Assembly (NCBI GenBank): GCA_964187785.1
Contig: OZ076409.1
Coordinates: 68,636,001 to 68,700,000 of the forward strand
Length of the DNA stretch: 64,000 nt
Reading direction: 5' to 3'
From: Amphiscolops sp. MND2022
Lineage: Eukaryota
A program made the translations under genes and the position numbers. The notes beneath the pieces are model-generated. The model saw only the letters and a program-made list of their open reading frames with translations, did not search any database and was not told where the DNA came from. How positions within the stretch are numbered: the first letter of the stretch is position 1; each line of letters begins with the position of its first letter. Of this stretch, positions 33,894-62,416 are shown piece by piece.

Positions 33894-34105
33894 TGTTAAG
33901 ATCGCTCAAGCTGAGGTTAAAACAATGGTGTGTAAGTATCTTTTATTCAACTATATCATACGTGGTTCTCAAAGTACAATGGTATATCAATGTAAACAAA
34001 AATAGGTCAGCATAGAATGGAGTTAAGTAGAGTTTGTTTGTAACTAGGTACTAGACAACCCTCAGACTATGTTTTTGATTGGCAGTCTGACCTCTGCATC
34101 TCATA
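33894..34105 (-). repeat. 3' LTR
   Basis: Matches 39271-39484, with roughly one difference per 9 bases by eye. Confidence 0.92.
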
Positions 34106-35093
34106 TTCGCTCCGCCCCTCAAGATAAAAACGGTTGTATGTGGCTATTTCAGGTATTAGTTCCGTATTCCGCGGTTTTTGTACTTCCCCAGTATTGCCCG
34201 TATATTACGGTTTGTTGATTCGTTATCGTTGCTCACTTCCCGTTGGTTGTTCTGGTTTTCCTGTCAAACACAATGGTTACTCATTTTTTTTGTTATTTTC
34301 GGTATAGTATGGTACACCGCTTAGTTTTTCGGTTTGTTATGCAAAAGGTAACTTTTGTGATCTTCTCAATGTTTGGGGTGGTTCAATTGGAATAATTTTT
34401 TTCGGTTTTCATACCTGTATCCGGTGTCAATGTTGTTTCTTTATGTAAGAGCTATAGTTCGTCGTAAATGTTGGAATGGACCGGTTTTCCTTCGGCGGTG
34501 TTGTAGCACTGAAAGTCGTCGTCTGAGACCATACTCAGGTCCAAGTCCATTGGTTTTCCTGCCGACTTGCCGGGACTGGTGAACTGTCTTCTTTCGTTTC
34601 GTGTTTGTTTTTTGCGTTTCAACCAGTCCGCGCTACTTCCGGTGTTTAGTGGCCTTGGGGCTTCCTTTCTACGGTAGTTACAAATATTTGTTCGCCGGTC
34701 TTCGAACAAGATGGTTTCTCCGCTGTTGTTTTCGTCCTTGTATTGATTCGTTTAGTGGCAGTAATTTCCCTCTGAATGGGTTAGAAATTAGTTTTCTATG
34801 TATAACAATATTTTTGTCGGTAGTTACCGTATGTTTGGTGCCTGAAACTGCAATTTGTTATTTATTATCGAATTTATTGCCAAGTGAACGTTTCTTTTGT
34901 GTTTTTTCAAAGGAGGTAAATGGATAAATTGTATTTTTCCCATACTCATCGTATCTGTCTGTTTTTTTGTTCTGGGTAAATTTTTATTGCCCTCCGGTAT
35001 TTAGGATCAGTATTCGTCTTTTTTGACATTACCAGGTGGTCAGTGATCTCCCCGGTTGAGTTGCGGGTGATGTATACTGACAGTTCTTTGGAG

Positions 35094-38000
35094 TCAAATG
35101 AAACAGTATTTTTCAATTTGACAACCTCTGTTCCAGGGTTCCGTCAGAAATGTAGTTCGAAAAGCGTTTTCTTTTTTTTCTGAATGAGTGGTGAAACGGA
35201 GGACATATAGTGCTCTATTTAGACTTTCGCGTATATTTTGGTTCTCTTCTAAGTTTGCTTTTATCAAGTTTGTCATAGATTGGATGGTTTTTTGGACCAA
35301 TCCCGTAAGCAATCGTGCAAGATTTCGCTGCCTGCCAACAGTTTTTTCATCTACGGGAATTAGGATAAAGGGGAATGAATTCAAGATTTCACTATTTAAG
35401 TTTCCAGTGAAATCGGTTTCGACATCTTTTCCGCGGTTTTTGGGCGGTTCAATTTTTGATTTTTTGGTACTTGGTATTTGTGGTTTCAAAATCTCGTATT
35501 TTCGGCAGGCGGAACAGGTTTTTGCCTTCTTCTTAATGTCTGCCCGCATATTCGGCTACAAGAAGATCGTCGCGTCTCTGCACATCTTGTGTTTTCCGGG
35601 TGGTCGAAATCTAGGGCCTTTAGTGCCGCGTAACGCAAGCTTTTCGGGATGATGATTCTGTCATCAACCATCGTGAGTCAGGCGTTTGGCTACCTGTTTG
35701 TAGTCTTCGGGTATTTGTTGTAGCTTATTGTCTTCTAGGCAACATTGAATTTGATTCAGATCTGGGTCTTTTATGAGCGTTTCGAGATCGAGCATGAAAT
35801 CCAGTTCTGCTGACCGCATATTTCCTTCTTGTTGCCGGAACGTACTGCATTGTTCACTATGATGCAGTTTATCTTCATTTTTACAATTCTTCTATTGGCC
35901 CGTCGCGGTATTCTTGTACAGGAATAGCTGGATTGGCGGTTCTTGTGTAGTGACCGGTGCTTTGGGTGACAATTAGGCAGTCGATTCGGTATCTGCGGCA
36001 GAGTTTGTCGTGATGATGTGCGGATTTGTTTCGGTAGTGGTAGGGGTGGGGTAGACCGTGGTGGGATTTCATCTCCGAAATGTATGAAATATCCGCCGCC
36101 GAGATGTCTGTCGCCGCATTCCTCCTTTCGTCGCAACTGCATATCGATTCTTTTAATTCCTTTTCATCTGCATCGCCCGGTCTTCTCAGGAGTAGGATTT
36201 CTCTATCCTGTTTTTTGTGCCATTGGTAGTGCATATGTCAGGGTCTTATGAGTTCAACTTTCCGTTCCACGAGCTCACTGGTTTCGAGAGTTTTCCACGA
36301 GCTCACGTCTGTTGATGATTCTCATGATTTCATCGTCGGCGCCCCAATGGTATCTTATTGAGGATTTCCGGACGTATTTATCGGGATTGCACCTAACTTT
36401 GTGCGGATTTTGTCAGTTATTGTTGTGATAGTTGTCCATGTTTGCTTGCAAATGAGTGTTACGGTGTGAATTAATGCCGATCTGATTAACAGTCAAGATT
36501 GAATGAGAATGACTTTTGTTTTGTTTTGCGGCAGCGCGTACCAGTTTGCGGGTGCATATCAAGCATGTCAGTCGTCTCTGTCTGATTGGTTGAATACCAG
36601 TCCAATGCGGCTATTTACCGTCACGAGATGGGCGATGGCGTTAATGACAAATTCTGCTTCGTTTTTTTCTTAAAGTTCCGCGTGTTTTGTCGGATTACAG
36701 CGAATGAAATCGGTGAAATGGATTTTCTTGCCGGCAGTGTGTTTTAGGGTTATGTCGAAATGATTTAGTCTATCTAGCCATCGTGTTACGCGGAAATTGT
36801 ACTGTTTTTTGTTTTATTTTATTTCAGTGTTGGTTCCAAAGCCTTGTGGTCAGAGATTAGCTGTACTTCTTTTCCGTATAGGTGGAATCTGAATCGTGCA
36901 GGGCCCCAGACTACGGACAATTTTTCGAACTTGCTGATTGAGTATTTTTTTCAGCGTTGTTTAAAAATCGGTTGACGAAAGCAATGGGTTTAAAATCGCC
37001 GTTGGTTTGTTTCTGCCATAAGGCTATTCCGAGGCCGGTCTTGCTACCATCCGTAGTGACTCTCTTTTCTTTGTTGCCGTTATTAGTGTGCTAGGCACGA
37101 TTGTGTGCTAAGTTCTTTTTTAGGTTGTTGAAGTCCATGTTACGTTCTTCCGTCCCTTCCCAATTTGTTCTTTTTTCAAAAATTGTCTCCTTTTGTCCCT
37201 CTTTTCGAGGAGGTTTGGAATAAATTTTGCGAAGTATTGTATTGCTCCGAGGAAGGATTTCAGTGTTTTGTGTTTGTTAATACTTTTAGATTGTTGATTT
37301 CTTCCGTTTTTCTTTATTTAGTCTGATACCATCTTGCAAGTTCGTGTGTCCCAGCCATATTGTTTCTTTTTGGTAGAATTTTGATTTGTTTTCACTGGCC
37401 CTGTAGCATTCATTCTATCGTTTTGTTAAGACTGGTTCTAATTTCTGGGTATGTTGTTCCTTTGTTCCTCGTGTTACGATTATTATGTCGTCAAGCCATA
37501 CTGGCGTTTGGTGGCCGAGTGTTCGGTCTGTTTCATCTTGGAAATTTGTCGGTATGTTGGCTGGTCCGTAAAATCCCTTTAAAACACTGTAATATTCAAT
37601 GATTTTCTCTCCCGTCATTGCGAAGTTGCAATGTTTACTGGTTTCTGGCAAATTTCATCTAACCGTAAGCATAGTCTAGGTTTATCACCGATATCAAGAT
37701 CGGGTCTACATCATATTTGTTAGTTCGGCGGAAAATTGGTTTAATATTGATTCGTCCATATTTGGCATATTGGGCCTCTTTTGTATGCAGCTCTCATTTA
37801 GTTTTCCGAAATCTATGGATATTTTGACTGATTTGTCTTTTTTAACGGTAAATGCTACGGGGGGATAAGAAACAGTCTTTTTCGATTGTCTCTATTCTTT
37901 CTAAATGTCCATATTTATTTAGTCGGTCTAGTTCAACTTTCACGTCGTTTCGTAGATGATAGCGTATTGGTCGTGTTTTTTGTTGTATTGGACAACATCC

Positions 38001-38400
38001 GGGTTTTAATTGTTATTTCTATTGGGAATTGTTTATTGTGTGCTTGGTCTCAAGTAGTCTTTTGTATTTTGTGTGGATTGTTTCCGAGTGGTCGGTTTCT
38101 TTATCCACTGAGACCTTGTTGATGATGATTGGTAGCTGTTTTACCCAATTTACTCCGAGAAGAGGTGTTATATTGTTCTGTTTGGTAATTGGTACGGGCA
38201 GTTTGACTTTTATGCCATTGTGTTCCTTGTACACCCATATTTCCCCGAAAACATAGTTTCGTTTTTGTTTACATCCTGGTATCTCTCTTTTTCATTGGCT
38301 TGATGCTCTCCGTTTTATATAGTTTTGGGTTATTCGGCATGATGTTGACCGGAGAGCCGGTGTTGATGGTGAATTTTTGTTTCGTTCCGTTCAATTCCAC
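35094..38400 (-). pseudogene. pol: Gypsy pol remnants (protease, RT, RNase H, integrase)
   Basis: NTGSPVNIMP (~38350); KGFYGPANIPTNFQ...PVWLDDIIIV (ORF 37415-37651); VTTDGSKTGLGIALWQ (~37040); VDDRIIIPKSLR and KTCSAC (35094-35671). Many stops and frameshifts. Confidence 0.85.
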
Positions 38401-39270
38401 TTTGGTACCGTAAGGGTAGTTGTTGTCCGGTAAAATTTTGTTTGATTTGTGTTATCCGGCAGATTTCTTCGGGCTTGCTTTCTTCTTCGATCTCCTCTTT
38501 GGTCATATTTTCCAGGTGAATTCTTTTGTTTCCTGTTGCTGTGTGGTTTTCCACGGCATACCCGTGCAAAGTGTCCTATTTTCTGGCAATAGTCGCATTC
38601 TACCGTTTTTGCCGGACAGTTGTGTTGGGGTGTCCAATTTGGTTGTCCGCAGAATCCGCAATCGTTTCTTTTTGATGTTTTCCGTTGTTCCTGGTATTGT
38701 CTTGCTTGTGGCTAATGCGTGTGATAACTTTAGATAAAAATAGGTCGTTTTCCTTTATGTCTTTAAAGTCACATTTTTTCTGGGGTTATTTATTCCTTCC
38801 ATTAATTTTCAGGTGTTTCATTGTCTTCTCGTTTTGCCCAGGAGATGTAACCACGGCCGTGGTAGGTGTTTCTTCTGGGCATCATGTAGTATTACCGGAA
38901 TAACTGTATCAGTTTTCCGTTTTGATGGTGTCTAAATCCGTGTTGAATTCTCCTTTGGTGATTATTTTTATTGCTGACGGTCCTGCACCCCAGATGAAAT
39001 CTTGTCTGATTTCTGGCTCTTTCGTGTCCGGTCACCGGTTGGTACCGTGTCAACCGTCAGTATTTGTTTGACATCAATTTATAGATTCTTTTTGTATAAT
39101 GCCGAAATCTCTCGGTCCACCCCTTGGGTGTGAACAGTTTCTTCCCGTCAAGACCGGTGTCTTCCAGATAGGCTAGTTTGATATTTGTGGTAGTCATTTG
39201 TGGTTGATTTTCATGGTAAAAAGGTTTTGTACACTCGTAAAGGAAAGTATAAAGCTTGCTTAGTGCGCAA

Positions 39271-42440: not shown

Positions 42441-42982
42441 ATGGATCTATCAAATTTTGTGACCTATGATAAAAAAGAATCTCTTTTATTGAGTATTGCA
42501 AAATCTAATTTGGATATTGTTGAAATTACCTTATCCAAACCACAAGAAACTTTAGAATTTAAAATGAATAAACAAAAAGAATCTTTTTCATTTGATGTTC
42601 CATTGGAATTGCCTGAAAAATGGATGATGGGAGTAAGAAGTTAGGAAGTATACAACACTGTATAAACATTACTGAAAAGAACAATAAACTTTTATAATTA
42701 TGATAACCAGTTATGATAACAACCACAGACAAAGTTTATCTGAAGTGTGACTGCGTAGAAGGTTCAATTGTTAATGGTGTACGAGAACAAATTTTTTTTT
42801 CATTTAATCTTAGTGCTCCTCCCGGATATAAAATTATAAAAGAACCCAATATTATTTTGTATAAAAAAATAAACAAAACAAGGTTAGATAGTATTCAATT
42901 TTTCCTTGAGGATAACAATCATAACCCAGTTAATTTCAACTCCGAAACATTAACATTTACAATTCAAATCATCAAGATTTAA
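42441..42982 (+). pseudogene. Polinton minor capsid (penton-like) protein, disrupted
   Basis: FSFDVPLELPEKWMMGV* ... DKVYLKCDCVEGSIVNG..FSFNLSAPPGYKIIKEP..YKKINK..IQFFLED..VNFNSETLTFTIQI, the pattern of Polinton minor capsid C-termini. Confidence 0.65.
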
Positions 42983-42994
42983 TCTTAATAAATA

Positions 42995-43395
42995 ATGAAC
43001 TTTAATAAATTTAAAAATTATTCATATTGTGTTGGTGGAAAACACTATTCCGCTACCACAAATATTCGTGGAGATATTACTCAAAATAAAAAACAGGAGC
43101 ACCTGTTAAATTATTAGGAGGTACTTGTTCAACTTGTAAAAGTAATAAATCACTTATAGTATCTGATCAAACAATTCAAGCAGAAGGATTGAGTAATTTT
43201 TTTAAACATTTGGGCTCGGCAGCCAAGAATGTCGGAAAGAAAGTACTCAAAATTCCAGGAAGAGCATTAGAGCTAGCAGCAAATATTGGAACTGCAGCAG
43301 CAAGTAAAAATCCTCGAATGATAGCTGCAACTGCTCCTGATATTATAAAATTTGTTCATCAAGGGAAAGGTCTGGTTGTAGGTAAAATTCATTAA
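42995..43395 (+). pseudogene. Small virion protein: Cys/His zinc-ribbon-like N-terminus plus amphipathic helix (adenovirus protein VI-like); one frameshift
   Basis: YCVGGKH...GTCSTCKSNKS...IQAEG-LSNFFKHLGSAAKNVGKKVL. Confidence 0.45.
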
Positions 43396-43444
43396 ATATT
43401 TCAGTAATTAATTTTAAATTCAAAATTATTATAATAAATAAATT

Positions 43445-44556
43445 ATGTATTCAATTCATAATCGAGATGATTTAGAAAAATTAAAAAAATTGCAAGAATC
43501 AAAATCTTTAATAAAAGCTGAAAGATTAAAACAACTCCTAGGGAAGCAAGACTTTCATTACGATATGGAAGAAGTCTTTGAACCTGTTACTGTAAAACAG
43601 GCTGAAGCTACTAAAAACCAGAAACAATTATCTGAAAAACAAAGAAAATCTATTAACCAGCAAACCCAAGCAGTACGTGATTCTTCTCAAACAACAGTAC
43701 AAGCAATAGAAAATCAAACACAGGCTATTCGAAAATCGAGTAAAGCTATGAATACAAATTTACAAAAATCGACTGAAAAAGGAATACAGGCCATTGGCCA
43801 GCAAACCCAAGGGTTTGTAAAGGAAATGATGCAATTACTAACCGTAATAATCAACTTGGTACAGATTTTGTTAATTCAAACCAAGTTGATTCAAGTATTG
43901 TAAAGACAGTTTCCAACTTCCTGAACACCCAAAGTCAATTCAGATTAGAACCTGTGGAAGGTAATCCAAATTTATTCATAATTAATCCTCTTACTAATCC
44001 TCAACAGGTATTAATCAAAGGTTCAACGATGACTTTCCAGAATGGTAACACATATAATTTAAATGATCCGTATCTTTCTTATTTTATAACTAATGTACAA
44101 ATAGATAAAGAAATACAAAACGAGAATCTAAATTATAATTTTTCAAAAGATGTGAAATATGATCTGAATTATGGAGATAAGAAATCAAAGAGGTACTGTT
44201 TCATTAAACATTTGATTAATCAATACACCTATCGAGAGATTTCTTATCAACAATCCCAATTGGGAAGTTGATTAAATCAGTATACTCGGGCTAGTAGCCC
44301 AAGCAAATCTTCGATTTGTACAGGTCAAAGACCTGCAAGTCCTGTGGTTTGTATCTTCCTCCCATCTGATCCAGATGAGCTTGTAGATCATTTTAAACTA
44401 ATCGTGTTAGAAAAAGTGGGAGGAAATGATAATCCTATGCTGAGCGAACAAATCATAGCAATTGTAGATAAACTATTACAATACCAATGTATTACAACAA
44501 ATCATCATCGAAACCTTATAAGCACTTTTACTAAAAAGGATAAGTTTGTGGATTAA
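43445..44556 (+). pseudogene. Polinton uncharacterised coiled-coil protein(s), disrupted
   Basis: ORFs 43445-43903, 43954-44271 and 44344-44556; EEVFEPVT, Q-rich coiled coil, and C-terminal FLPSDPDELVD...GGNDN motif. Confidence 0.5.
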
Positions 44557-45565
44557 ACACCTTGAACTCCGGATTAGATTCATTACATATCATGTATTTT
44601 TTGTCATTTTTATCTTCTAACCTGTTTAATAATAAATAGTTTTACTTCTCCAGCCATGCTTCTCTGAATAAACTTTTAAATTCATCATAAGACATATCAA
44701 AACCAGCAATATCTCTGTATATATGTTCAACATCTTTCAATGTTTGTTGAAATAAAATTATTATATTCGAATTGTTTCTATTTGTTCTTTTAGGCAAATC
44801 GAAATATGACTGTGATAAATAATAAACATCCAGATCCTTATGTCATTCCCTAGTAAAAAATGGATCTATTAATTTCTGAATACTATCCAACATACCAACA
44901 AACACAACACAACAATTTTGAAAATCTTGTACTGTTCTATCATCTAGATCTTCTTCCACTGAAACCTCTTCTAATTCAAAATTCGAGTACCGTAGGGCAG
45001 CTTCGCTGTATTGTTCAGGACTCCTCGTTAATATTTTTATTTGTTGTTCAGGATTATCCAAGCGAGTTAATTCTAACTTGTTTAATAACAAATGGGTCTT
45101 TCCACGAAATGATGGGCCAACTATCAATGTCCTATTTCAATTATTATGCAAAGCCAGCGTAGCTGTATCAATTTGATTATTATTATCATCAATTTGATTA
45201 TTATGATTTTCATTATCATCATCAATTTGATTATTATCAATTTGATTATTATCATCAATTTGATTAATATCATCAATTTGATTATTATCATCAATTTGAT
45301 TATTACTTAAATATATAATACATCTTTTTAATTGTTTTAATAAAAAAGTTTTATTGAATTCCTTATTACAGAATTCACATTTTACTTTTTTATTGAATTA
45401 TTCTGTACATGTACTATACAATTTATCATTTTTATATTTGAAAAAATCTGTTTTCAGTATATTACACACTTTACATCTTTTTTTATTACTACAATCATCG
45501 CACAGCTTTGCTGGCTTTGCATACACAGAAGTTTCCTTACTTTTTCCACAAATTAAACACTTCAT
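44531..45565 (-). pseudogene. A32/FtsK-like packaging ATPase 1 with N-terminal Cys-rich domain and NNQID repeats
   Basis: One frame from ATG 45565: MKCLICGK..CDDC..CKVC..CTE*..CEFC, then (D)DNNQI repeats, then LIVGPSFRGKT (Walker A), decayed Walker B CVVFVGML and FFTRE* (TRGRH-like), YYLSQSYFDLPKRT.RNNSN. Stop at 44531. Confidence 0.8.
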
Positions 45566-45733
45566 TTATTTAGTAAAAAAATCACTAAGAGCACTAAGAA
45601 AATAACTAAGAGCATGATGTTTCAAGTGTAGCCTTATATGCTTAGTGCTCAAATAATGCTCTTAGTAAATTTGCTTAGTGATTTTACTAAGAAAATTACT
45701 AAGAAATCAAACCCATTTTTTTGGGTACTTATT

Positions 45734-46729
45734 TCATTTTAAACTAGTCGTAATGCCTGCTTTACCGTAGGCGATTGCTTGTTCCATTATTATATTCTGA
45801 AATTCCTGTTTAAGTGAGTCTGAAATCAGTGGTTGTTGCCATCTATCGATGTATTTGTCTATTTTAGATTCATTTACTTCAATTTTATTCTGTTTACAAT
45901 AATATACATATTAATAACCTACATTAAAAGGTGTTATTTCAATTGTTTGATCTGACGTTTCTTCTGAAAACACCTTGAGTTTGTTGTATTCTTCACCTGT
46001 AATGAAATAACTTTCATATTTTACATAATCCACGGGACTCCATTTATGTTTAGTTGTATCATATTCTACTTGGTAGTTGTGGTTGAGTATTTTATACTTT
46101 TGTGATCTAGTATCAAATTCAATTACACCAAATTCTAACTGACTACGATATTGTTTCCAACTTAATTCTTTGATTGCATAAGTTTGTCTTATGGTTTCAA
46201 AGAAACTATCTGGATTGTTAATTGTTATGAAGATCTTAAAACAATTCTCTGTTACAACTTGAAGAACATCCTTTGCATAGTGTGCAAGATAAATAACTTG
46301 TATATTATGATAACTACCAAATTTAAACAAATCTTCTACTTTTATTCTAAGGATTTTATAAGCACCTGCATCGTCTAAAATTATCGTTCTATTTGCAAGT
46401 TTCTCTATTTCTATTTTTTCTAACTGCGACAAAGGTATATAATTATCTTCAAACTCATTTTCATCTCTACCGAATACTAAAAAATTTGTTTTAGTTTGAT
46501 CTAAATATTATTTCAAGAAACTAGTCTTACCTGATCCACTGGTACCATAAATTAACATATGACAATTTGTATGCGAAAGTGGTTTAGATTGAGATACTTC
46601 TTCAGGTTGATTAGCTAAATGAGATTTTTTAAATCCCTTGAATTGTTTTAGTTTTTGGTAAAATTTTTCGTAATGTCTAGGTCTAATATAATACCAATAA
46701 ATATATAAAACTATAAAAAAATTACACAT
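45734..46729 (-). pseudogene. Second A32-like P-loop ATPase
   Basis: HMLIYGTSGSGKTSFLK (Walker A), RTIILDDAG (Walker B), FKFGSYHNIQVIYLAH..KDV..ENC; internal stops at 46508 and 45911. Confidence 0.75.
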
Positions 46730-46769
46730 AATAAAGCTATATAAAATTTTTTATTCATTCAATAATAAA

Positions 46770-47629
46770 TAATTGAAAGAAAAGAAGAAAAAATTGCTAA
46801 AGAAACATTTTCTCCTGTAATTAAGAAGTTTTAAAGAATTCAAATACAAACTCACTATGAAGATGAGTGTTGGAGTATTGATCTGATAGACAGGTCTAGC
46901 TTAGCAAAATACAACAAAAACTACAAGTTTATTTTTACATTAATTGACAATCATACTAAATATGCATGGGCGATTCCTCTTAAAGATAAATCTGGAAACA
47001 GTACAACAACTGCATTTAAAAGTCTTATTGAAAAAGCAAAAAGAAAACCTGATAAAATTTGGTCAGATAGAGGTAAAGAGTTTTATAATAAAACATTTTT
47101 GGAATATCTTAATCAAAATGAAAATCAAATTTTTTCGACTCAATGAGATTCAAAAGTTGTTTTTGTTGAACGATTCAATAGAACACTTTTGGACTTAATA
47201 AAAGAACCCATGTACATTGAAGGAAAAGCTTGTTGGTTGAATTATCTAGGTACTGCTATGGAAAAATATAATACTCGTGTGCATACCACAACCCGCATGA
47301 CACCTTTTGAAGCTAATAAAAAACCAATAGATCACCCTACCTTCTTTGTTAATAAACCGAAACAACCCAAATTCAAAGTCGGCGACTATGTAACAGTTCC
47401 TGATAAACGCAATTTATATAGTAAATGTTATACAACAAATTGGAATAGAGAACTTTTTAAAATACATAAAATTAATCCAACTAACCCAGTTACGTATGGT
47501 TTAGTAGATGAAAACAACGAACAAATAGAAGGAAAATATTATGAACAAGAACTTTTAAGAAGTGTATTCAATTTTAAATCTAACAACAAAACGTTAGAAA
47601 GTATGATTATTTTCCATCGTTATGAGTAA
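46770..47629 (+). pseudogene. int: Polinton retroviral-like (DDE) integrase
   Basis: WSIDLID..FTLIDNHTKYAWAIPLKDK..IWSDRGKEF..VERFNRTL..YNTRVHTTTRMTPFEA..FKVGDYV..TTNWNRELFKI..GKYYEQEL; two in-frame stops. Confidence 0.92.
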
Positions 47630-47646
47630 TTATATTTAAATAAAAA

Positions 47647-48279
47647 ATGTCAATTCATAAATTTGGTTATAGTGCCGAAAGCTTACAAAAAGATAAGATT
47701 GAGAATCTAGAAAAAGAATTGGAATCACAAACCAAATTATTCAACTTAAAACTTAATGATATAACTGATAACCTACAAAAAGTACAAGAAATTATTTTTG
47801 ATAATGGTGAAACCAAGGTAGTAGTCAATGCAAAGTTATCCTTAGACATAGACAAAAATATCGAAGACTTGAAATTCAACCTGAAATATTTAGAACAAGA
47901 TATTAAAAACAAATTATTAGAAAAGAAGAAAGAAATTATTTCGGAAGCAGTCAAACAAGTCAATGAACAACAAGTCATTTTACGTAATCACTTCGAACGA
48001 AACATTTTTGTAGAATTTGAAAAATGTAAAAATCAAGCAGTCAAAGATACTACTCAATTATTATACAACAAAGGATTGTTTGACTCATTTGAAAATAAAG
48101 ACCAAATCTTTATTGAATACTTATATTTTAGTGATGAATACTTGTTGGAAAAATACGGAAAAGAAATACAGACATCAGATGGTGTGTACTATTTATCAGA
48201 CTTAAACTATTCAACGCGAGAAGATATCGTGAAGTGCTTGAAAAAAGATGAATACAAAGATATAGTTGACCTTAAATAG
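47647..48279 (+). CDS. Polinton accessory coiled-coil protein of unknown function (210 aa, intact)
   Basis: Uninterrupted ORF between integrase and MCP with K/E/L-rich heptads; no recognisable motif. Confidence 0.55.
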   Translation: MSIHKFGYSAESLQKDKIENLEKELESQTKLFNLKLNDITDNLQKVQEIIFDNGETKVVVNAKLSLDIDKNIEDLKFNLKYLEQDIKNKLLEKKKEIISEAVKQVNEQQVILRNHFERNIFVEFEKCKNQAVKDTTQLLYNKGLFDSFENKDQIFIEYLYFSDEYLLEKYGKEIQTSDGVYYLSDLNYSTREDIVKCLKKDEYKDIVDLK

Positions 48280-48384
48280 AGAATGAAACTAACCGATACT
48301 GAGATAAATTTTATACTTTTTGAAAACTAATTTGTAAAATTTGAACTAAATACTTTATAAAATTGAGTTTTTATTTAAAATGAA

Positions 48385-48916
48385 ATGAGTGAAAAATTGT
48401 ACTCATGTTTACAACAAAATCAGAATCCTGATAGTCTTGATTTGCGATTGAAAGAAAAAAATAGTTTTAATAATTCAATTCAAAAAATAAAAGATATTCA
48501 AATTTTTTTTAATCATGAAGCTAAAAAGTATAAAAGAAATTTAAAAAATATACAAGCTTATAAACGGTTTAATTCAATCTATTGATGGAGTTTTATTATT
48601 GGGTGTTTCTTCAACTGCTATCGCATTAAGTGTTACCGGAGTTGGACTTATTGTGGTACCCATCGCGAGTGGTATAGGTGCAGGAGTACCCATAATCAGT
48701 AAAATTCTTAACGAATACCTGAAAAGAAAAGAACAACACAATATTAAAAAATAAACTCTTGCTTGTAGAACACTACATGATTTCAGTAAACTACATTCAA
48801 AATGTTTAGAAGACAATAAAATTGATCTGAATGAATACAACAAATTAAAACAATCTTATGATACATACAAAACGAACAAAACTAAACTAAATTCTGAGTT
48901 TACTTTTTTAGGATAA
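48385..48916 (+). pseudogene. Polinton accessory membrane protein, frameshifted
   Basis: ORF 48385-48585 continues in another frame as GVLLLGVSSTAIALSVTGVGLIVVPIASGIGAGVPIISK...CLEDNKIDLNEY. Confidence 0.5.
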
Positions 48917-49056
48917 ATTTTTTAAGTAAAAATAATATAAATAAATTTTTAAATCATCATCATAAATATTTTTTCTTTACAAACCAAAGGTTTACAAACC
49001 AAAAGTTTGCAAACTAAAAGTTTGTGCAGATAAAATTGAATATTTTTTTTATATAA

Positions 49057-50286
49057 ATGGATTTATTTTCATTGAAAAACAAATATGCTATGGATAAACC
49101 TATTCATAAAATTGATTTTATTAAATCCTCACCTAGTAGTTTAGCTACAATTTTTTAAAGTAATTCAAATCTTTCCATCATCTTCCCAAGAGAAGATGCA
49201 TATATTTGTTTGCAGAATTCTTTAATTAGTCTAGAATTTGAAGTTCTTAAAAACGATAATACAAGATATGCTGATGGTGATCAAAAAAGCTTGGTCAACT
49301 TTGGATCCGTTGTTTTATTTAGTGAAGCTAAACTTGTAACATCATCAGGAAAGCATCTTGAGAAAGTTGATAGCCTACACCCGGTGTGTTTAATGTATAA
49401 ACTTTTAACAAGTACCCAACAAACAAGTCAATTGATGTACGGATTTGAAAAATCACAAGCAACTAGAAGACAAGAACTAACAACAAACAAAACAGAAAAA
49501 GGAACCTTTTTTCTTAGAATAAAACTAAAAGACTTGTTTGGATTTGCTGATCGAGAAAAAATAACTTATGGATTGGGTTACACTCTTACTTTAAAACGAA
49601 ATAATATTAACGACCCTATCATCAGGGACAACGGTGTTGATGCTGCAAAAAATGTTATAAAAGATATAGGTTGGTACATTCCACACTATATTCCTAGCTT
49701 AGAAAACCAGCAACTCGTGATGGATCAAATATTAGACAAAGATCCAACTGAATTATTTTTTACCGGAAGAGTTGTTTTTAGAAAAGATGTTAACACCAAT
49801 AACAATTGGACATTTGAATTAGGCAACAGTGGAGAATCAACACCAACTTTTGTAATTGTTGGATTTCAAGCTAGAAATCAAAATGATTCACAATCACACA
49901 ATAATGCAACATTTGATAAACTCCCAATCAGTAATGCTGTTTGTAAAATAGGATCAGAAAAATATCCCGATGATGGAATAGAATGTGATTACGACCGCGA
50001 CAAAGATGATCAAGCATACAGTGAAATCGAAAACTTTTATCACTTAAAAAGTGAAACTAACCTACTCAACCCATTTATTGATTTGCACAAATTCAGAACA
50101 AATTATAATTTTTATGTATTTGACCTAAGCAAACAAAAAGATCACATTGCTTCTCAACCAATTAGATTAGAATCTAAATTTAGTGCTGCCATTGATGTAG
50201 CATACTATATAGCTTATGCCCTAGTCCTAACACCCAAGCTGATAAGTATCAGTAGTGATGGACAAAGGTATTTTGATTTATTATAA
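49057..50286 (+). pseudogene. Polinton major capsid protein (double jelly-roll), one early in-frame stop
   Basis: ATG 49057 is in frame with ORF 49210-50286, with a TAA near 49156. Beta-rich ~410-aa protein with LFSEAKL, IKLKDLFGF, LTLKRN, WYIPH, PTFVIVGFQ, YPDD, FYVFDLSKQ. Confidence 0.8.
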
Positions 50287-50461
50287 GCAAAGCTCTTTCA
50301 GTAAATAAATACAATATATAAATTTATAAAATGATAAGGAATCTCTGATATCAGAGATTCCTTATTTAAAAAATATAATTTTACAGCTTATAATACAATA
50401 AGCTGATATATAATAAAGAAATTTATAAAATAGTTTTTTTATTTTTATAAAATGAACAAAC

Positions 50462-53400
50462 TTATAAAACATGTGCTCGATCATTTATCAACTTCACAAG
50501 TTGTTGATGGGTGAGTGCTTGTTTCCAATACCAAACATTGAAATAAATTTCTTCATCGGTTTTCTTGCTACCGTCATCATTTATAGTTAATTCTTTATAA
50601 TACAAACAAATTAATTTCAGACAATATATACAAGGGCAATCGCCTTTTTGAGTGTGTTTATCCCATGGTAAACATTGTATTGGATTCATACACAAACGTT
50701 TATCGTCAAAAGGATTCAAACACAACTTTGGTTGTTTTTCAACTGTAAGGTTGTGTAAATTAGATCTAATTGATAACCTTGTGGAACTTGATGTTTCTGG
50801 ATTAAACAATGAATTCTGATATCCTTCACATTTGGGAGCTTTTTGTATTCCTTTTTGTTTCGCTTTTTGATTACTATTATAACTGAAAGAATATGACTTT
50901 GATCGCAATGCTATAAAACTATCTAACACCAAAACTGGACTTGATTCAATTTTCATTTTTCCTATAACTTTCTTGTTAATAGGGTTATATAATTCATGAG
51001 ATTTATCTACTTCACTGAAATCAAATTAAATCTTTATTTTGTTTTAAAAAGTTTGTTGCTTCTTGGTGGTTTGTATCAAAACTAAGTATGAAAGAATCAG
51101 TATCCATGTAGTGTAGTTGTACTTTATTTTGCCAATATGGTTCTAAAGTATGATAATAAAATTCATACATTAATAGTTTACTTAATTCTAACACAGAGAA
51201 CCCCAAATAAATTGGTTTATCAAGGACTGTTTTTTCTTTATCAAATTTGTACACACTAAACTTAAAATAATGATCCATGATTCCTTTGAAACTTAACTTG
51301 GATTGTCTTTTTATTATTTGATCTATTTGAGAATGATAAATGAATTCTAGATTGGTTCTATCTCTTACATTTTCCATTGTCTTACCAAAGAACGCATTGT
51401 TCATTAATTTATACAGGTCTTTTTCAAAGTTTGTTTTTGCTACTGTGCGTTTTTGGTGTTATGATCGATATTTTTACCTAACCATGGACTTTGTTTGAAG
51501 CGGTAGATTGTATGTATCTTCGTTACTTTCATCCCCTGGTTAAGATAAAACTTAAACATCCTATAATGTATCATATAATTCGATTTATTGGTTACATCAC
51601 ACATAAGTTTTGGGGTTGGTTTGTAATTAGGTTGATTTACATTATTCATATAAGCTGAGAATAAGTCTAGATCTGCTTTTGATTGATACGGACAAAAAGG
51701 AAAGTTTTTTGTTTTTTCCTTTATTTCAACAGGATATTCTAAATCACATTCTATAAAGTAACCAAATTCATTTTTGTCTGGAATAACTCTCAAATCTTCT
51801 ACAATTTGTTCTAGTATATACTCTTCTGGTAGTTGTAGTTTTTCGAATTCACTTGTAGGAAGGTATTGACTCATTGCCCATCTATACAAATTATTTGCAT
51901 CAATGTATAAGATTTGTTTATTTTCGTTTGATTCAACAAATCGATCTCCCATTACACTTGAGATGCCTCCCCGTATATTGTTTTCTAGAAGTAGTAGTAG
52001 GTCTTTATCTTTATAAAATCTAACTTTAAATTAGTTAACTTTAATCCAGCTTTCCATGTATAACCAGGTAGAGAGTAACTATACAAAGGATTAATTTTAT
52101 ATTCTCGTGAAGAACTTTCCACAAAGTTTTCGAATACATCAGCTAATTGAAGAACATCCATTTTTAAATATAACATTGTTAATTCTTGTCCGTTCTTTAT
52201 ATTATTTTTATCAATTAATTCTTGGGTTCTTTTTATATCATCATCTGATGGATAAGATTGTGTTAATGTTGACCAATAATCTTCTTAGGTTAGATTAAGT
52301 GGTTTATCAAAATTATCCAAGTTAAAATATGCATATGAATAAGATAACTTCTTCTTAAATAATTTATCTATATATCCAATTTCATCCATTACAGGTAAGT
52401 TGTCTAAACTTTTAACTAATTTATCTAAACTACTACTTAGAAAACGGTATGAATCCAGGAAACAAAAGCAACCTACTTGAATTGATACATAATTTTCTAT
52501 TGACTTTGGGATTATTTTTGGTTCATACCCTTTTTCGAAAGCTTGTATTAAGAGTTTTTCAAATATAAGATGACAATCATACCCCGAAAAGTTATGGAAA
52601 AGTATAGGAACAAAACTTGATGACTTTTGTTTTACATTTATGTTACATATATTATGAGCTGCTCCTCTGTATTTTCCTGTAAGATGATCATGATCTCTTA
52701 CTTTATGCAAAGCTGTATCTTCAGTAAAAGGTTGTTCACAAAGCCAACACTCTTCTGCTTGTTCAAATTGTACTTCTTCTTCTTGACTCATTTCTAATTC
52801 TAAATTTGTTTTAAAATATTTTGATGCAATTTTTTCTAAAGTCAACATTTTATTTACAAACCATTTAGTACAGCTTTGCTGCCCTCCGGTACAATCTGTT
52901 CCGAAGTATGAATAATACTTGCTTTCATATGGTGAAATTAAATAAAATCCTACTGCAATTGGAATTTGTTTAAATAATACTTTGGGGTCTTTTTGAGGTT
53001 GATTAATGCATTCAAAATCTGCATATACTCTTATTGGTACAGGAACTTTCATATAAAAATTTTCAAACTTTAACTGATTCTTCCAACTGAATGTAATTTT
53101 AGTTGGTTGTTGATTAATACATCTTTCTATGAGGTTGTTTAGAACATCGTTTGAATAAAATGCAGTAAAACATCTTCTACAAACATGTTTCATGTGTGAA
53201 TCTTTATTTATTAAACAATGTAACTTTGTAATTAAACAAGAGTGATTTTTAAATAACATTAAATCAATTTGTGGTTGTTTGTAATTTTCGTTAATATAAA
53301 TTGGTGTTAAAACATTTCCAGTGAGTTCAAATACATTTATACCATGACCTCTGATATTCAATTTATTAAGTCTTTCAAATTTGGGAATGTCTTTAACTTT

Positions 53401-54250
53401 CATAGGGAATTCCAATCCTTTTAGGTTGAGTTTATTCTCATGCATTAAATATTTTGATATTCTTTCTTTATGATCCTCAACAGGATATAAATATGCTAGG
53501 ATACACCATAAAAAACAATATTGATCAATATTTTTTATATTTATAATTGATTTACTATCCTTATATTTTCCTGGTAACTCAATGTATGAAGATGCTTGAA
53601 TATCTCTAACTTTATATATTTCTAATAAAACTTCTTCTCTTTCTTGAAATTGGAAACCTGATCCTTCCAATTGGATATCGTCTAATTTCTCCATTAATGT
53701 GTTATGAGTATCTTGTTGTGTAGCGGACTGCAAGTGATTATATATTAGATCTGATTTTATCCATCTTTTAAATACTTCTTCTTCTCCATTGACTATTTTT
53801 GAAAATTTAGATAGATAACTCAATTGATATTTATATCGGGGAAAGTAATTTTTATCTAGTAATTCATTTATGTTATGTTCAAGATTTTCACTTGGATTTA
53901 TTTTTAGTTTCATGTATAATTTTTGATTCACAATTATTTCCACGCCTACCAAAGTTTCTACACTGAAAGGTGTATCGAAGGCGCTTTGTTGATGCCGGTT
54001 GTGAATTTCACTTTGGAAATGTCTTGTTTTATCTGTTTTATATTTACCACATTCTTCACAGCATACTTTTTTATTTTTATTTTTATGTTCATCTGAATTT
54101 AAATGAGAACTTTTATCTGAGATATGTATATATAAATTACATAGATTACAATAATATTGCCCTAATTTTTTTGATGTTTTACTGACTTATTATGAGGTAA
54201 TTTGAAAGCTTTTTTACAATATTTAAAACACAAATATTACAATATCCCAT
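50462..54250 (-). pseudogene. polB: Protein-primed family B DNA polymerase, frameshifted
   Basis: Exo motifs YADFEC, HNFSGYDCH, YLKMDV; polymerase motifs YIDANNLY, KLMNNAFFGKT, YMDTDS; embedded CWLC..VRDHDHLTGKYRGAAHNICN (endonuclease VII-like); N-terminal Cys/His fingers. Split over ORFs 52285-53952, 51985-52176, 51440-51952, 51021-51404 and 50462-50956. Confidence 0.95.
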
Positions 54251-58243: not shown

Positions 58244-58320
58244 CCGACGACGAAATTTCCGACGACGAAAGTTCTTGTGACGACATTTCTGACGACGAAA
58301 TTTCCGACGACGAAATTTCT
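58244..58320. repeat. 15-bp minisatellite (CGACGACGAAATTTC) x 5
   Basis: Directly visible, ~115 bp upstream of the paralogue 3 ATG. Confidence 0.85.
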
Positions 58321-58435
58321 GGTAATCAAAAAATGCGTCAACATGCACTGCATCCCGTCTGTTTCGGAACAAAACCAAAACGGTTTTAGAATTTTGAAAC
58401 ATTAAACGAGGTCACGTTGTTCTTTTGTCACAGTC

Positions 58436-60855
58436 ATGACTGTCAAGCCCATGGTGAATACAAACGCATGGGGCTCCCACGAGGAAACCGAAGATGTGCT
58501 GGCAATCAAAGCCTCTGCTGTGTCTTCTGACAACGACTGGGCAGCCGAAGGATACTTTGTGTTCAAGAAGTTCCTCACATTAAGGCATGCATCGCAGAAG
58601 CTCACATATCTTTTGCATGAAATTTTCCATGAGATGGATGTTTTTTTAGAACCATATCCAAGCCAAAGCACAGGAGCCCTAGCATTTTGGAATTCCACCA
58701 TGATTCCATTCATCCATTCATGCAACTATATGGTTTCAACATGGAATCACATGGAAAACAGGGGTGGTAGGTTTCAGTGAAAATTAATAAAACCTCATGA
58801 TTTTGGATCCCAAGGAAATTTTTTTCTAACTTTCTGTAAATAAATCTTCTAAACACTCATGGGTGTTTTACGAGCTCGTTTAACAATGTTAGCATCTGCG
58901 ATCTATGTCTCCAGGTTCTTAATATGGCTCTTAATGTGGACGTTTTGCATAACAGTTTCTATTCTGTTCATTCACAGCACTTTTGTTGAATACCAAGAAA
59001 GCGATCCCATAACCACAACTACATTTATTGATGGTAAGCCAAAACCAGACCCAGTAATTGTCAAAATCTGCAACAGTGTTTTCTTGGACGCCCAAAAGAT
59101 TCTCAAATACAACGGAACTGAATTCAATTATGACGCATATGAGTTTCTATACGAAGCGGTGTCTGGAAATTTCTTATTCGACGACTCAAAATGGGTCGTT
59201 TCGACATCAGTCAATGACATGTTTTTCCTCAGTAACAACGTTCTCGATGCGTTCAGATTGGATGTCGACATGTTTCTGGGAACCTGTTACGTGGTTGGGA
59301 GTTACAGAAATTGCATTCCAGACTTCGAATGGCATCTTGACGTCGAAACTTCATGCTACCAGGCACAAATAGACCTTGGTGGCTACGGGCGAAATAGGGC
59401 TCTAAAACTGGGTTTCTTTTTTAACCCAGACATCCAGCTGGGCAAATATATTTCCCTGCCCGGGGTTTATGTCACGTTTTTCCATCCTCGGGATTACATT
59501 CCATACTCGAGTGGTTTTTATGTGGTGCCAAAAGATTTTGTGGTCGTTTCAGCAACCACTGAACACAAAGTTCAGAAAGCTTCCTTTGAGAAGGCTAAAT
59601 GTTTCGAACCAGACGGTCCCCAGTTTTATAACTTCACAGGTGGGCCGTTTGAAGTTGAGTACAACACGGAGTATTGCTCTAACCTGTGTTTTGCCGAAGC
59701 CTATTATAATGAATGCGACTGTTCGCCATTCTATGGAATGAATCAAACTAATTCGGAGTGTCTGGAAGAGGAAGAAAAACGGTTGTGTCTGAAACATCTC
59801 GGAGCCTTTCCTGAGAAAATCGAGAACTCCAGTAAAGAATGCTTGACCAAGTCAGTATTGAACACATCACTTCAAAAGTTTTTTTTAAAAAAAGATAACA
59901 AAATTGAACGGCGATCAAATATAAAGATGAAAACAAACTAGAATTCACAACACGAATATGCAGAAATTTTTTTCATATGTTGTAACAATTAGCTTCAAGT
60001 TGTTGAATTGAGCGAGTGTTAAAAAATTAATTCGAAATCTTTGATAAAGTAAGTATGAGCCATCCATGTTTTGATATGTTTTGTTTGGCATATAATTGTC
60101 TTCAATTGTTTCGTTTTCATTTTCTCATCCGTGAGATCTGAGCTATATATTTTGCTTTATGTGGTAATTGAAACGAGGAAAATATATTCCGGCTCTTCAC
60201 AATATTTGAAAAATAACAATTTCACACGAGGTAAAATAAAAAGAGAACTACAAGTATTTCTGCAAAAAAATGCAAAACCTAAAACGTTTTCATTTTTTTA
60301 TGTGTACAACACTGCGTTAGGTGCTTGAACAAATGTTCCCAAACGTACTTGCGAATGACAGTTTTCAAAGAGCGAGACAAGTACACCAAGTACAAAATAT
60401 TGACGCTGTTACAAGATCTAACTGCGCGGTATGGGTACGAATCTAAAATCTCAAAATTGATTGCCCAAAGAATGATGCTCAGCGGTGACCTTCTAGCCGA
60501 AGCGGACAGACTGAGAGAAAGTATTGCTTACGTCACATTTTATCTTAAGAACAACCAGCAAGAGGTTGTCGTTCAGATCGTCCCCTTCATGACCTTTGCG
60601 ACCTTTGTGAGCAACGTTGGGGGGTTGATGGGACTCTGGCTGGGTCTCAGTGCCATTTCTATAATGCAATTCTTAGAAAAAACTGTGGCTTCGACGATCG
60701 TGTTTCGACATACAGTCCGAAGGCCTATCAAAAAACCAAAGGATCCCGAATCCCCCAAAAAACCAACTTCTAAAGCTTCTCTAAATTACCCACGAGATTC
60801 AGACAAAGAAGTTGCTTTGAAAAGCAAGAGAGGCTCGATGCCTACTGTTCAATAA
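58436..60855 (+). CDS. DEG/ENaC subunit, paralogue 3; exons 58436-58584, 58915-59850, 60321-60855; 539 aa spliced
   Basis: Splicing a GC-AG intron (58585-58914) gives KKFLTLR|FLIWLLMW, colinear with RKFLSVRSLLWVFMW of paralogue 2. A GT-AG intron (59851-60320) gives ECLTK|CLNKCSQTYL, colinear with KCMTGCLNKCKQTYL of paralogue 1. Total CDS 1620 nt; TM2 is FVSNVGGLMGLWLGLS. Confidence 0.88.
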
Positions 60856-61404
60856 GTGAACGAAAGAAAAGCCAATCAAAGGTAGCTTCAACAGAGCATG
60901 GTTTTAAAATGGTGTTGTAAGAATTAATTAATTTAATCAAATATTCTATTTTTTTTTTCAATTTCCAACTTATTTGTTATTCATTTTGAATGCTGAAATC
61001 TTCACTTTTTTGACACGTGGGCAGTTTGAGTTTGACCTGAAGAATATGATATTGTAAACACTTGATTTCACTTTAAAGTCTACACAGAAATAAATTCTTA
61101 ATTTTCTGATCCGTTGTTTGAAAGCAAGTTTGATATGTTTCCACAGATGACCACTGCATATACCGATTTTCAGTCAAATTTCGGGAAAAGCTTTTCAAAA
61201 TTTTCATAGCTCGCGTCAAGTTTGTCAATAGTTGAAACGGAAACTACACTCTACTCTGTAGGGAATTGATTTAATGTTGCACAATATTTCAACGAGATAA
61301 AGTAGTGTCTTCCGCGAATAGTCGCTTTTGCCACCCCAAACGCGACAATACAAAATTAAACACGGAACAGTCTGTTCAAATCACACAAACAAAATACACA
61401 TCAT

Positions 61405-61812
61405 GGGGACGGTTCAAATCGTAGAATATTCAAACCGTCCAAAGCAGTTTACACGCAGTAAATACTGCGCGTCATAGTCACGTGCCCAAACTTTCATTCA
61501 ATGAACCAATCAAATTCAGTAAAATGAATACAGCACAAGCGACGAACTAATTACGATAACGTAAGTCAGCTATGTCCACAAACTCCTAGTGCCCTAAATG
61601 CAGGAGCGAAGCGAAGCGGAGCGACGTGCCATTTGGCCATGCCTCAATGTTGCTACTTGGCGAAGGGAGCGAAGCGACCGAGCCATACAACAAGTATGCT
61701 AACCTCTTCAAATTATAACCTGAAAATAGTCGCTGCTATGGAATTCTTTCGACGCTTTGAATAGCTTTGATTTTTTCGACGTTTTGAATATTCTACGATT
61801 TGAATAGACACC
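61405..61812. mobile_element. Mutator-like MITE (408 bp)
   Basis: ~40-bp TIRs with core TTCAAATCGTAGAATATTCAAA, GG...CC ends, and a perfect 9-bp TSD ACACATCAT (61396-61404; 61813-61821). Confidence 0.88.
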
Positions 61813-62075: not shown

Positions 62076-62416
62076 ACCTAAGTTACAAAAATCACAACTC
62101 TAGCAAAATTCATACAAGAATTCTTCTAAGATCTTGTAAGAAAATGCATTTTTAGAATCTTTCATTTTTTTTGCATTTTCTGCTTCAAAAAATTTTGGTC
62201 GAAATAACACATCACATTTTTTGCAAGAACTTCTTGCGAAAAAAAATGCATTTTTTGCAAAAATGTTATCAGAATCTTGTAAGAAATGATCGACATTGTA
62301 ACAAATTTGCAAAATTTGCGATTCTTGTACAAACTTGTCAGGTTCTTGTAAGAAATGCAAAGTTGACAAGAATTTCGGAAGAATTTTGCAAGATTTGTAA
62401 TTCTTGTAACCTAGGG
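62076..62416. mobile_element. piggyBac-like MITE
   Basis: CCTAAGTTACAAAAATCACAA / TTGTAATTCTTGTAACCTAGGG followed by TTAA; interior made of decayed TTCTTGCAAGAA palindromic units; left TSD degenerate. Confidence 0.6.

What the first reader, a model, noticed from the sequence alone, without database searches (positions are those of the whole stretch)
59851..60320. Second TIR-bounded intron in the same gene, from an unrelated repeat family
Seen: the intron starts GT+CAGTATTGAACACAT (59853-59867) and ends ATGTGTACAACACTG (60300-60314)+CGTTAG; these are 13/15 inverted matches. The TIR is unrelated to that of intron 1, yet both 3' TIRs lie 6 nt before the end of the intron. CAGTG-type ends recall Tc1/mariner TIRs (known). 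Inference: at least two independent intron-generating transposon families acted on this one gene.
Basis: partly seen in the sequence, partly recalled or inferred. Interest (0 to 1): 0.72.

Follow-up and report, generated by a model that had tools for sequence, protein, structure and literature searches.

The report
Transposon fossil turned into an intron
A 470-letter stretch with mirror-image ends interrupts one copy of a sodium-channel gene at a spot that is unbroken in its relatives, and it is likely the fossil of a small jumping DNA element whose insertion created a new, presumably spliced intron, a known route of intron birth with few examples in animals.

Summary
A GT-AG interval (59851-60320) interrupts an amiloride-sensitive sodium channel (DEG/ENaC) gene. 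Removing it restores the conserved C-x3-C-x3-C motif that 62 of 65 spanning homologues read without a break, so it is a gain on this paralogue's branch. Its 13/15 inverted repeat is beyond chance (2 of 11,921 pseudo-introns) and unrelated to that of intron 1. The Tc1/mariner reading fails: the flanks are GT and CG, not TA. In both introns exactly 8 intron bases lie outside the inverted repeats (2+6 and 1+7) with no codon lost. That is the geometry of an 8-bp target duplication supplying both splice sites, as in known hAT introners. Against this, the two duplication copies now match at only 3 of 8 bases, faster decay than the repeats. No second copy was found and no genome or RNA was available, so an introner family and splicing remain unproven. 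Verdict: likely a transposon-born intron, hAT-like; new member of a known kind, in a probably acoel genome that introner surveys seem not to have covered. The scan noted similar cases on other DNA (e1-7392325, e1-7335448).

The parts
58451..58584 (+). Coding exon 1 of channel paralogue C (an in-frame ATG also lies at 58436)
   Evidence: joined frame open for 534 codons, aligns with paralogues A and B
58585..58914 (+). Intron 1, GC-AG, 330 nt, two in-frame stops regions if retained; inverted repeats start 1 nt and end 7 nt from the intron ends
   Evidence: junction chosen by alignment to paralogues, two other open junction pairs exist
58586..58607 (+). Intron 1 left arm (22 nt, 18/22 to right arm)
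58886..58907 (-). Intron 1 right arm
58915..59850 (+). Coding exon 2 (TM1 and most of the extracellular domain)
   Evidence: PF00858 E 8e-19 for the ORF that holds it
59845..59852 (+). Inferred left copy of an 8-bp target duplication: 6 exon bases plus the GT donor
   Evidence: geometry; matches the right copy at 3 of 8
59851..60320 (+). Intron 2, GT-AG, 470 nt, phase 2, 29% GC; in-frame stop at 59939-41 if retained
   Evidence: only this junction restores the paralogue spacing without an indel
59853..59867 (+). Left arm of the inverted repeat; its first bases supply positions +3 to +8 of the donor site
   Evidence: 9 of 11 matches to a recalled donor consensus
59868..60299 (+). AT-rich non-coding interior; longest stop-free stretch 87 codons, no homologue
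60289..60299 (+). Candidate branch site (A at -29) followed by a T run; no AG between -68 and the acceptor
   Evidence: sequence; branch motif recalled
60300..60314 (-). Right arm of the inverted repeat
60315..60322 (+). Inferred right copy of the 8-bp duplication: last 6 intron bases with the AG acceptor plus 2 exon bases
   Evidence: geometry
60321..60855 (+). Coding exon 3 (rest of the extracellular domain, TM2, tail, stop)
   Evidence: PF00858 E 4e-12; dN 0.20-0.26 against saturated dS

Best explanation
Intron 2 is likely the remnant of a 462-bp non-autonomous DNA transposon, probably of the hAT type, that landed in the coding sequence of this channel gene and likely made an 8-base target duplication whose left copy now holds the GT donor and whose right copy holds the AG acceptor, so that splicing would remove the element plus one copy and restore the frame exactly. 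Shown: the interval, its inverted ends, the 2+6 geometry, the unbroken site in homologues, the absence of a coding indel, and purifying selection on the downstream exon. Inferred: splicing, the transposon origin, the 8-bp duplication, the superfamily. The element's own first bases (CAGT at +3 to +6) complete a good donor site, which would explain why an element with such ends is tolerated at this offset. After insertion the splice signals were probably refined: in both introns an arm mismatch makes the left arm a better donor, and the acceptor-side copies are richer in pyrimidines than the exon copies. Intron 1 likely arose the same way from an unrelated 8-bp-duplicating element (1+7).
For: Gain: 62 of 65 homologues that span the site read it as unbroken C-x3-C-x3-C (116 of 175 proteins passed E 1e-15; the three exceptions are gene C's own read-through ORF and two with another spacing). 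Paralogues A and B in the window lack an intron here. In the tree C sits with A, B and P0015 (99/98), and the four next rows also read through. Repeat beyond chance. Control: paralogue B's intron has no terminal repeat (6/15; 4,988 of 5,000 shuffles as good). Length bookkeeping: 8 nt outside the arms in both introns; chance about 0.6% for both being 8, 1.8% for both equalling the same common duplication length, 6% for any equal sum (uniform offsets assumed). Without the element only 8 nt of intron remain, so it did not simply land in an existing intron. hAT elements have short repeats and 8-bp duplications, and the Mar MITE begins CAG (PMC3942097, PMC3517528, passages). hAT introners that co-opt both splice sites from an 8-bp duplication are listed for Styela clava and Panicum virgatum (PMC12130899 supplement 8). 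Donor match rises by one base with the left arm in both introns (9 vs 8, 7 vs 6 of 11). The gene is open and conserved after the joint, so the interval must be removed for a product.
Against: The two duplication copies match at only 3 of 8 (intron 1: 4 of 8), and the matching bases are the splice-site letters, which prove nothing. Mismatch is 9 of 16 in the duplications against 6 of 37 in the arms (Fisher p 0.006), so plain neutral decay of a perfect duplication is rejected; selection at the acceptor, changes in the exon copy or selection on the arms must be added. A Mutator-type element in the window keeps a perfect 9-bp duplication with arms of similar quality (18/22). No intact 8-bp-duplicating element was found in the window. 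No second copy of the element in the window. The left arm has no hAT-diagnostic proof: termini alone do not fix the superfamily, and P and Merlin elements also make about 8 bp (recalled). The window's Tc1 end resembles the arm at 12 of 14 with one gap (0.8% of CA-starting 16-mers), although another unrelated element scored the same. The donor-refinement argument rests on two bases and cannot tell which arm changed.
Confidence: 0.55

Rival explanations
1. Transposon-born intron, but the element carries its own acceptor outside a subterminal repeat and the duplication is short (GT or AGGT), as in Symbiodinium introners.
For: Explains why the last 6 intron bases do not match the exon. GT stands on both sides. 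This arrangement is described in PMC9860276 Fig. 2B legend (passage).
Against: Needs an asymmetric element in two unrelated families, and leaves the equal 8-nt total in both introns to chance (0.6-6%).
Confidence: 0.17
2. The insertion is old, the 8-bp duplication decayed normally, and the arms are kept by selection as an RNA stem that brings the splice sites together.
For: Arms decay slower than the duplication. Paralogues are saturated at silent sites, so there was time. The stem is predicted with pair probabilities 0.68-0.79 for 11 of 13 pairs in intron 2 and 0.92-1.0 in intron 1. Euglena's nonconventional introns need CDG/CHG pairing at a similar geometry (PMC12501133, passages).
Against: The two mismatches in intron 2 are A-C and A-A, not G-U. 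Whole-intron folding is no better than shuffles (z -0.26). A stem over +3 to +17 would cover the U1 site (established splicing knowledge). The ends are ordinary GT-AG.
Confidence: 0.1
3. Tc1/mariner MITE.
For: Right arm begins CAGTG; 12 of 14 plus one gap to the end of the Tc1-like element at 18750.
Against: No TA on either side (0 of 2). A 2-bp duplication leaves 6 nt unexplained unless two codons were lost, and the cysteine spacing is unchanged. No similarity to the Tc1 element beyond the end (16-87 of 150 random segments as good).
Confidence: 0.07
4. Intron gained by another route (repair filler DNA, or capture of other sequence) and the inverted repeat is a chance match, or a MITE landed in an older intron whose remainder was deleted.
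For: Unanchored, the match is reached by 2.5% of segments; the genome is rich in repeat-ended elements (at least five in the window); no copy found.
Against: Anchored chance 0.02-0.12%; the second intron of the same gene also has terminal arms (0 of 11,921 at 10 nt slack); both arms sit within 7 nt of the junctions.
Confidence: 0.11

Closest known systems
hAT introners that co-opt both splice sites from an 8-bp duplication: Styela clava fam1 (Charlie-type) and Panicum virgatum fam14 (PMC12130899, supplement 8 rows)
   Same: Terminal inverted repeats; both splice sites outside the element; 8 nt in total outside it; an animal example exists.
   Different: Those are recognised as multi-copy families with a detectable duplication. 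Here one copy is seen, the duplication has decayed to 3 of 8, and no acoel name appears in the 12 of 14 supplement files searched.
Introners derived from non-autonomous DNA transposons in Micromonas, Aureococcus, Symbiodinium, Florenciella (PMC9860276, passages)
   Same: Length-neutral intron creation in coding sequence; several unrelated families acting in one genome is common there (74% of aquatic introner genomes).
   Different: Family membership not shown; this intron looks older than those, which were found by intron-to-intron similarity.
MITE-derived introns of the tunicate Fritillaria borealis (seen only as summarised in PMC11282704, passages)
   Same: Animal introns at new positions with inverted repeats and target duplications.
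   Different: Those have mostly non-canonical ends and a changed spliceosome; these are GT-AG and GC-AG.
Euglena nonconventional introns, signature N3CDG / CHGN5-6|R (PMC12501133, passages)
   Same: CAG near the 5' end pairing with CTG 6 nt before the 3' end, purine after the junction, 8 nt outside the stem.
   Different: CAG is at +3, not +4; canonical GT-AG ends with branch and pyrimidine signals; animal host.
Tc1/mariner MITEs
   Same: CAGTG-type end on the right arm.
   Different: No TA duplication (TA as the mariner duplication: PMC5753468, passage; window example at 18750-19922).

Membership tests
U2 spliceosomal intron | GT...AG ends with donor consensus | tested here: met
   (9 of 11 to a recalled consensus)
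U2 spliceosomal intron | Removal restores a conserved reading frame | tested here: met
U2 spliceosomal intron | Junction seen in RNA | not testable with these tools
   no run was listed
Introner family | Intron at a newly gained position | tested here: met
   62 of 65 spanning homologues unbroken; tree
Introner family | Several similar introns in unrelated genes of one genome | not testable with these tools
   no genome held; none in the 64-kb window
hAT MITE | Short terminal inverted repeats (5-27 bp), no coding capacity | tested here: met
   15 bp, 13 matched; no homologue of the longest frame
hAT MITE | Duplication length of 8 bp, by length bookkeeping | tested here: met
   2+6 nt outside the arms with no coding indel
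hAT MITE | Matching 8-bp direct repeats at the flanks | tested here: not met
   3 of 8; so it is filed as hAT-like, not as a member
hAT MITE | Ends shared with an autonomous hAT transposase element; multiple copies | not testable with these tools
   no genome
Tc1/mariner MITE | TA target duplication | tested here: not met
   GT and CG
Tc1/mariner MITE | Ends shared with a Tc1 element | tested here: inconclusive
   12 of 14 plus a gap to the element at 18750, equalled by an unrelated element
Euglena-type nonconventional intron | N3CDG at the 5' end and non-GT-AG borders | tested here: not met
   CAG follows 2 nt; borders are GT-AG (against PMC12501133)

The most novel reading that the evidence does not exclude
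This animal lineage (probably acoel worms) is re-populating intron-poor genes with introns made by many unrelated 8-bp-duplicating transposon families, and after birth these introns keep their terminal repeats under selection as an RNA stem that bridges the splice sites while the duplication is rewritten into better splice signals: a Euglena-like geometry handled by an ordinary animal spliceosome, and a way to recognise old transposon-born introns after all family similarity is gone.
Probability: 0.12. Interest if true: 0.72.

Novelty: new member of a known kind. Interest (0 to 1): 0.38.

Why it matters
Where new animal introns come from is an open question, and documented transposon-born introns in animals are few. 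Here a largely intronless, expanded channel family gives a clean before-and-after comparison, and one paralogue seems to have gained two introns from two unrelated elements with the same 8-nt geometry. Introner surveys find families by intron-to-intron similarity and miss aged copies; a test on end geometry (arms plus offsets summing to a duplication length) could find them. If common genome-wide, it would add a new animal lineage to the introner list. On present evidence it is one well-supported example of a known mechanism.

Tried and rejected
No whole genome is held, so the genome-wide test could not be run. No sequencing run was listed for 58400-60900; this is no evidence on expression. 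Metagenome scans: no relative of the channel protein (173 pattern matches, 0 confirmed) and 0 matches to the paired-arm pattern; the organism is probably absent from that collection. The 87-codon open stretch inside the intron found 1 candidate, 0 hits. Rfam: 0 matches at E up to 1 over 58300-61000. blastn and local alignment of the intron against the window gave only AT-rich chance matches (best 116 against 110 for a shuffled query). A first scan for repeat-ended elements with duplications printed none; a relaxed one printed 15 rows for about nine places, several probably chance. The arms do not extend inward beyond 15 nt. Duplication lengths 2-10 flush with the arms: best is 8 with 3 matches. 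Exon tandem duplication (the two CLxK units) as the intron's source was rejected because both units are in the paralogues. The resemblance to the element at 31659-32540 is not significant. No source name was attached to any of the 20 homologue clusters looked up, so the host lineage was not established here. Look-ups of earlier findings by sequence and relatives showed nothing. Paper searches: introner + acoel gave 1 paper, on Copia elements (listing only); searches gave no report of transposon-born introns in acoels (listings only); one search gave 0.

Full report
The locus. The window holds three paralogous genes for amiloride-sensitive sodium channels (PF00858): A at about 9573-11144 without an intron, B at about 25492-27490 with one intron (26527-26956), and C at 58451-60855 with two (58585-58914 and 59851-60320). 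They are 63-66% identical as proteins and near saturation at silent sites. The finding is the second intron of C. The host is an animal rich in mobile elements; an earlier AI note on this genome (e1-8647183) calls it an acoel worm. I could not test that: none of the 20 homologue clusters looked up carries a name.

Is it an intron? Of 14 GT/GC..AG pairs that give an open frame near this place, 59851-60320 is the one that aligns with A and B without an indel. Retention gives a frameshift (470 nt) and a stop at 59939. The exon after it is open and conserved (dN 0.20-0.26 to B and A, dS saturated), so a product needs the interval removed. The donor matches a recalled consensus at 9 of 11 bases; a candidate branch A at -29 is followed by a T run and no AG lies between -68 and the acceptor. 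Splicing itself is inferred; no RNA was available.

Is it a gain? Of 175 proteins fetched, 116 matched A at E up to 1e-15, 65 of these span the site, and 62 show an unbroken C-x3-C-x3-C there; the exceptions are C's own read-through frame and two with another spacing. These rows include near-identical pairs and at least two from short, possibly transcript-derived contigs, which say nothing on introns; most of those looked up lie on contigs of 10-1,045 kb, and the gene calls for this assembly ignore introns, since P0007 and P0008 run into the introns of C and B. In a tree of 14 rows, C groups with A, B and P0015 (99/98), and the next four rows also read through the site. One gain on C's own branch is the simplest reading. 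B, P0005 and P0006 lose homology at three other places, which suggests scattered gains in a mostly intronless family.

Is the inverted repeat real? Yes when its place at the ends is counted: 2 of 5,000 shuffles and 1 of 9,071 window segments; 0, 2 and 14 of 11,921 GT..AG pseudo-introns with 5, 10 and 20 nt of slack. Unanchored within 60 nt it is weak (126 of 5,000). Intron 1 has arms of 18/22 (0, 0 and 7 of 11,921). B's intron has none. The arms of the two C introns are unrelated.

Which kind of element? If an insertion becomes an intron without changing the protein length, the intron bases outside the element equal one target duplication. Here that is 2+6 = 8, and in intron 1 it is 1+7 = 8. 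Under uniform offsets both being 8 has a chance of 0.6%, any equal sum 6%. Eight bases with short repeats define hAT elements (PMC3942097 and PMC3517528, passages; the Mar MITE begins with CAG). P and Merlin elements make similar lengths (recalled). Tc1/mariner needs TA on both sides (PMC5753468, passage); the flanks here are GT and CG, while a Tc1-like element at 18750-19922 has TA..TA and a broken DDE_3 frame (E 0.0013, below the Pfam cut-off). A TA duplication would need two codons lost from an invariant spacing. The end of that Tc1 element does resemble the arm (12 of 14 with a gap; 0.8% of CA-starting 16-mers), but another, unrelated element scored the same and nothing extends inward.

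How it would work. The element inserts into a target ending in AGGT or one change away from it. The left copy gives the GT, the element's first bases complete the donor at +3 to +8, and the right copy gives the AG. The spliceosome removes 2 + 462 + 6 bases and leaves one target copy. With only 8 bases left when the element is taken out, there was no intron here before. In intron 1 the donor is half target (G), half element (C), giving a GC-AG intron. This matches the class 'co-opt both' with an 8-bp duplication, listed for hAT introners of Styela clava and Panicum virgatum (PMC12130899, supplement 8; I saw places 1-32 of 63 for hAT) and described in general in PMC9860276 (passages).

The weak point. 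The two duplication copies match at 3 of 8 (intron 1: 4 of 8), and the matches are the splice-site letters. Mismatches are 9 of 16 in the duplications and 6 of 37 in the arms (Fisher p 0.006). A Mutator-type element at 61405-61812 keeps a perfect 9-bp duplication with arms of 18/22. So neutral ageing alone does not fit. Three things could: selection for a better acceptor (the intron-side copies are 8 of 9 pyrimidine outside the splice letters, the exon copies 5 of 9; read), change in the exon copy (these codons vary freely among paralogues), or selection that keeps the arms paired. In both introns one arm mismatch improves the donor by one base, which fits refinement but is thin. The stem is predicted to form, yet the intron as a whole folds no better than shuffles (z -0.26), its two mismatches are not wobble pairs, and it would cover the U1 site. 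The rival that the element brought its own acceptor stays open.

Comparison and novelty. It works like a hAT-type introner insertion. Membership is not shown: matching duplications were tested and not met, and copies could not be searched beyond the window. The mechanism is known, also in an animal. What may be new is the host: no acoel genus name of four tried occurs in the 12 of 14 supplement files of PMC12130899 searched; in PMC9860276 Hofstenia appears only in the table of genomes, in a file cut when stored; a search for introner with acoel gave one unrelated paper. Unseen supplement parts and subscription papers could hold a report. PMC10565955 (passages) gives 3-6 exons per gene for acoelomorph genomes and says nothing on intron origin in the passages seen. 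The likeness to the Euglena code (PMC12501133, passages; lead from note e1-7335448) is geometric only.

Verdict. Observation confirmed; interpretation partly supported. Real intron about 0.95, gain on this branch about 0.93, transposon origin about 0.85, 8-bp hAT-like route with later refinement 0.55 (my estimates). New member of a known kind; interest 0.38.

Noticed in passing
window 9573-11144, 25492-27490, 58451-60855: Three dispersed paralogues of a greatly expanded, mostly intronless DEG/ENaC family (92 representatives at E up to 1e-10); another paralogue (P0015) lies on a contig of the same length. Each intron seen is at a different position.
   Followed up: partly
window 26527-26956: Intron of paralogue B, also at a position its paralogues lack; no terminal repeat, but AAGGT stands at both junctions (5 of 8 flanking bases match), possibly an older or different gain.
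   Followed up: partly
window 61405-61812: 408-bp non-coding element with about 40-bp inverted ends and a perfect 9-bp duplication: Mutator-like MITE just downstream of gene C.
   Followed up: partly
window 62077-62416: 340-bp element with 35-bp inverted ends, CCC and TTAA intact on the right and degraded on the left: piggyBac-like MITE.
   Followed up: no
window 18750-19922: Tc1-like transposon with TA..TA flanks and a broken transposase frame (DDE_3, E 0.0013).
   Followed up: partly
window 6012-7096 and 31659-32540: Two further elements with near-perfect inverted ends (21-22 of 22); the first is flanked by TA, the second has no intact duplication.
   Followed up: no
window about 42500-54200: AT-rich, decayed Polinton/Maverick-like region: integrase core (PF00665), double jelly-roll capsid-like frame (PF21738), endonuclease VII domain, pieces that look like a protein-primed polymerase (that label is recalled).
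   Followed up: no
window 1-1237 (-) and about 34000-39000 (-): Gag-like and gypsy-like retroelement remains (labels from recall; no Pfam hit); strong AT skew at 34000-39000.
   Followed up: no
window 58417-58433: Pyrimidine tract and CAG just before gene C's first ATG: an acceptor for a 5' untranslated intron or for trans-splicing.
   Followed up: no
window 58244-58319, 21379-22438, 29981-30614: Tandem arrays of 15, 210 and about 180 bp.
   Followed up: no
   Followed up: partly
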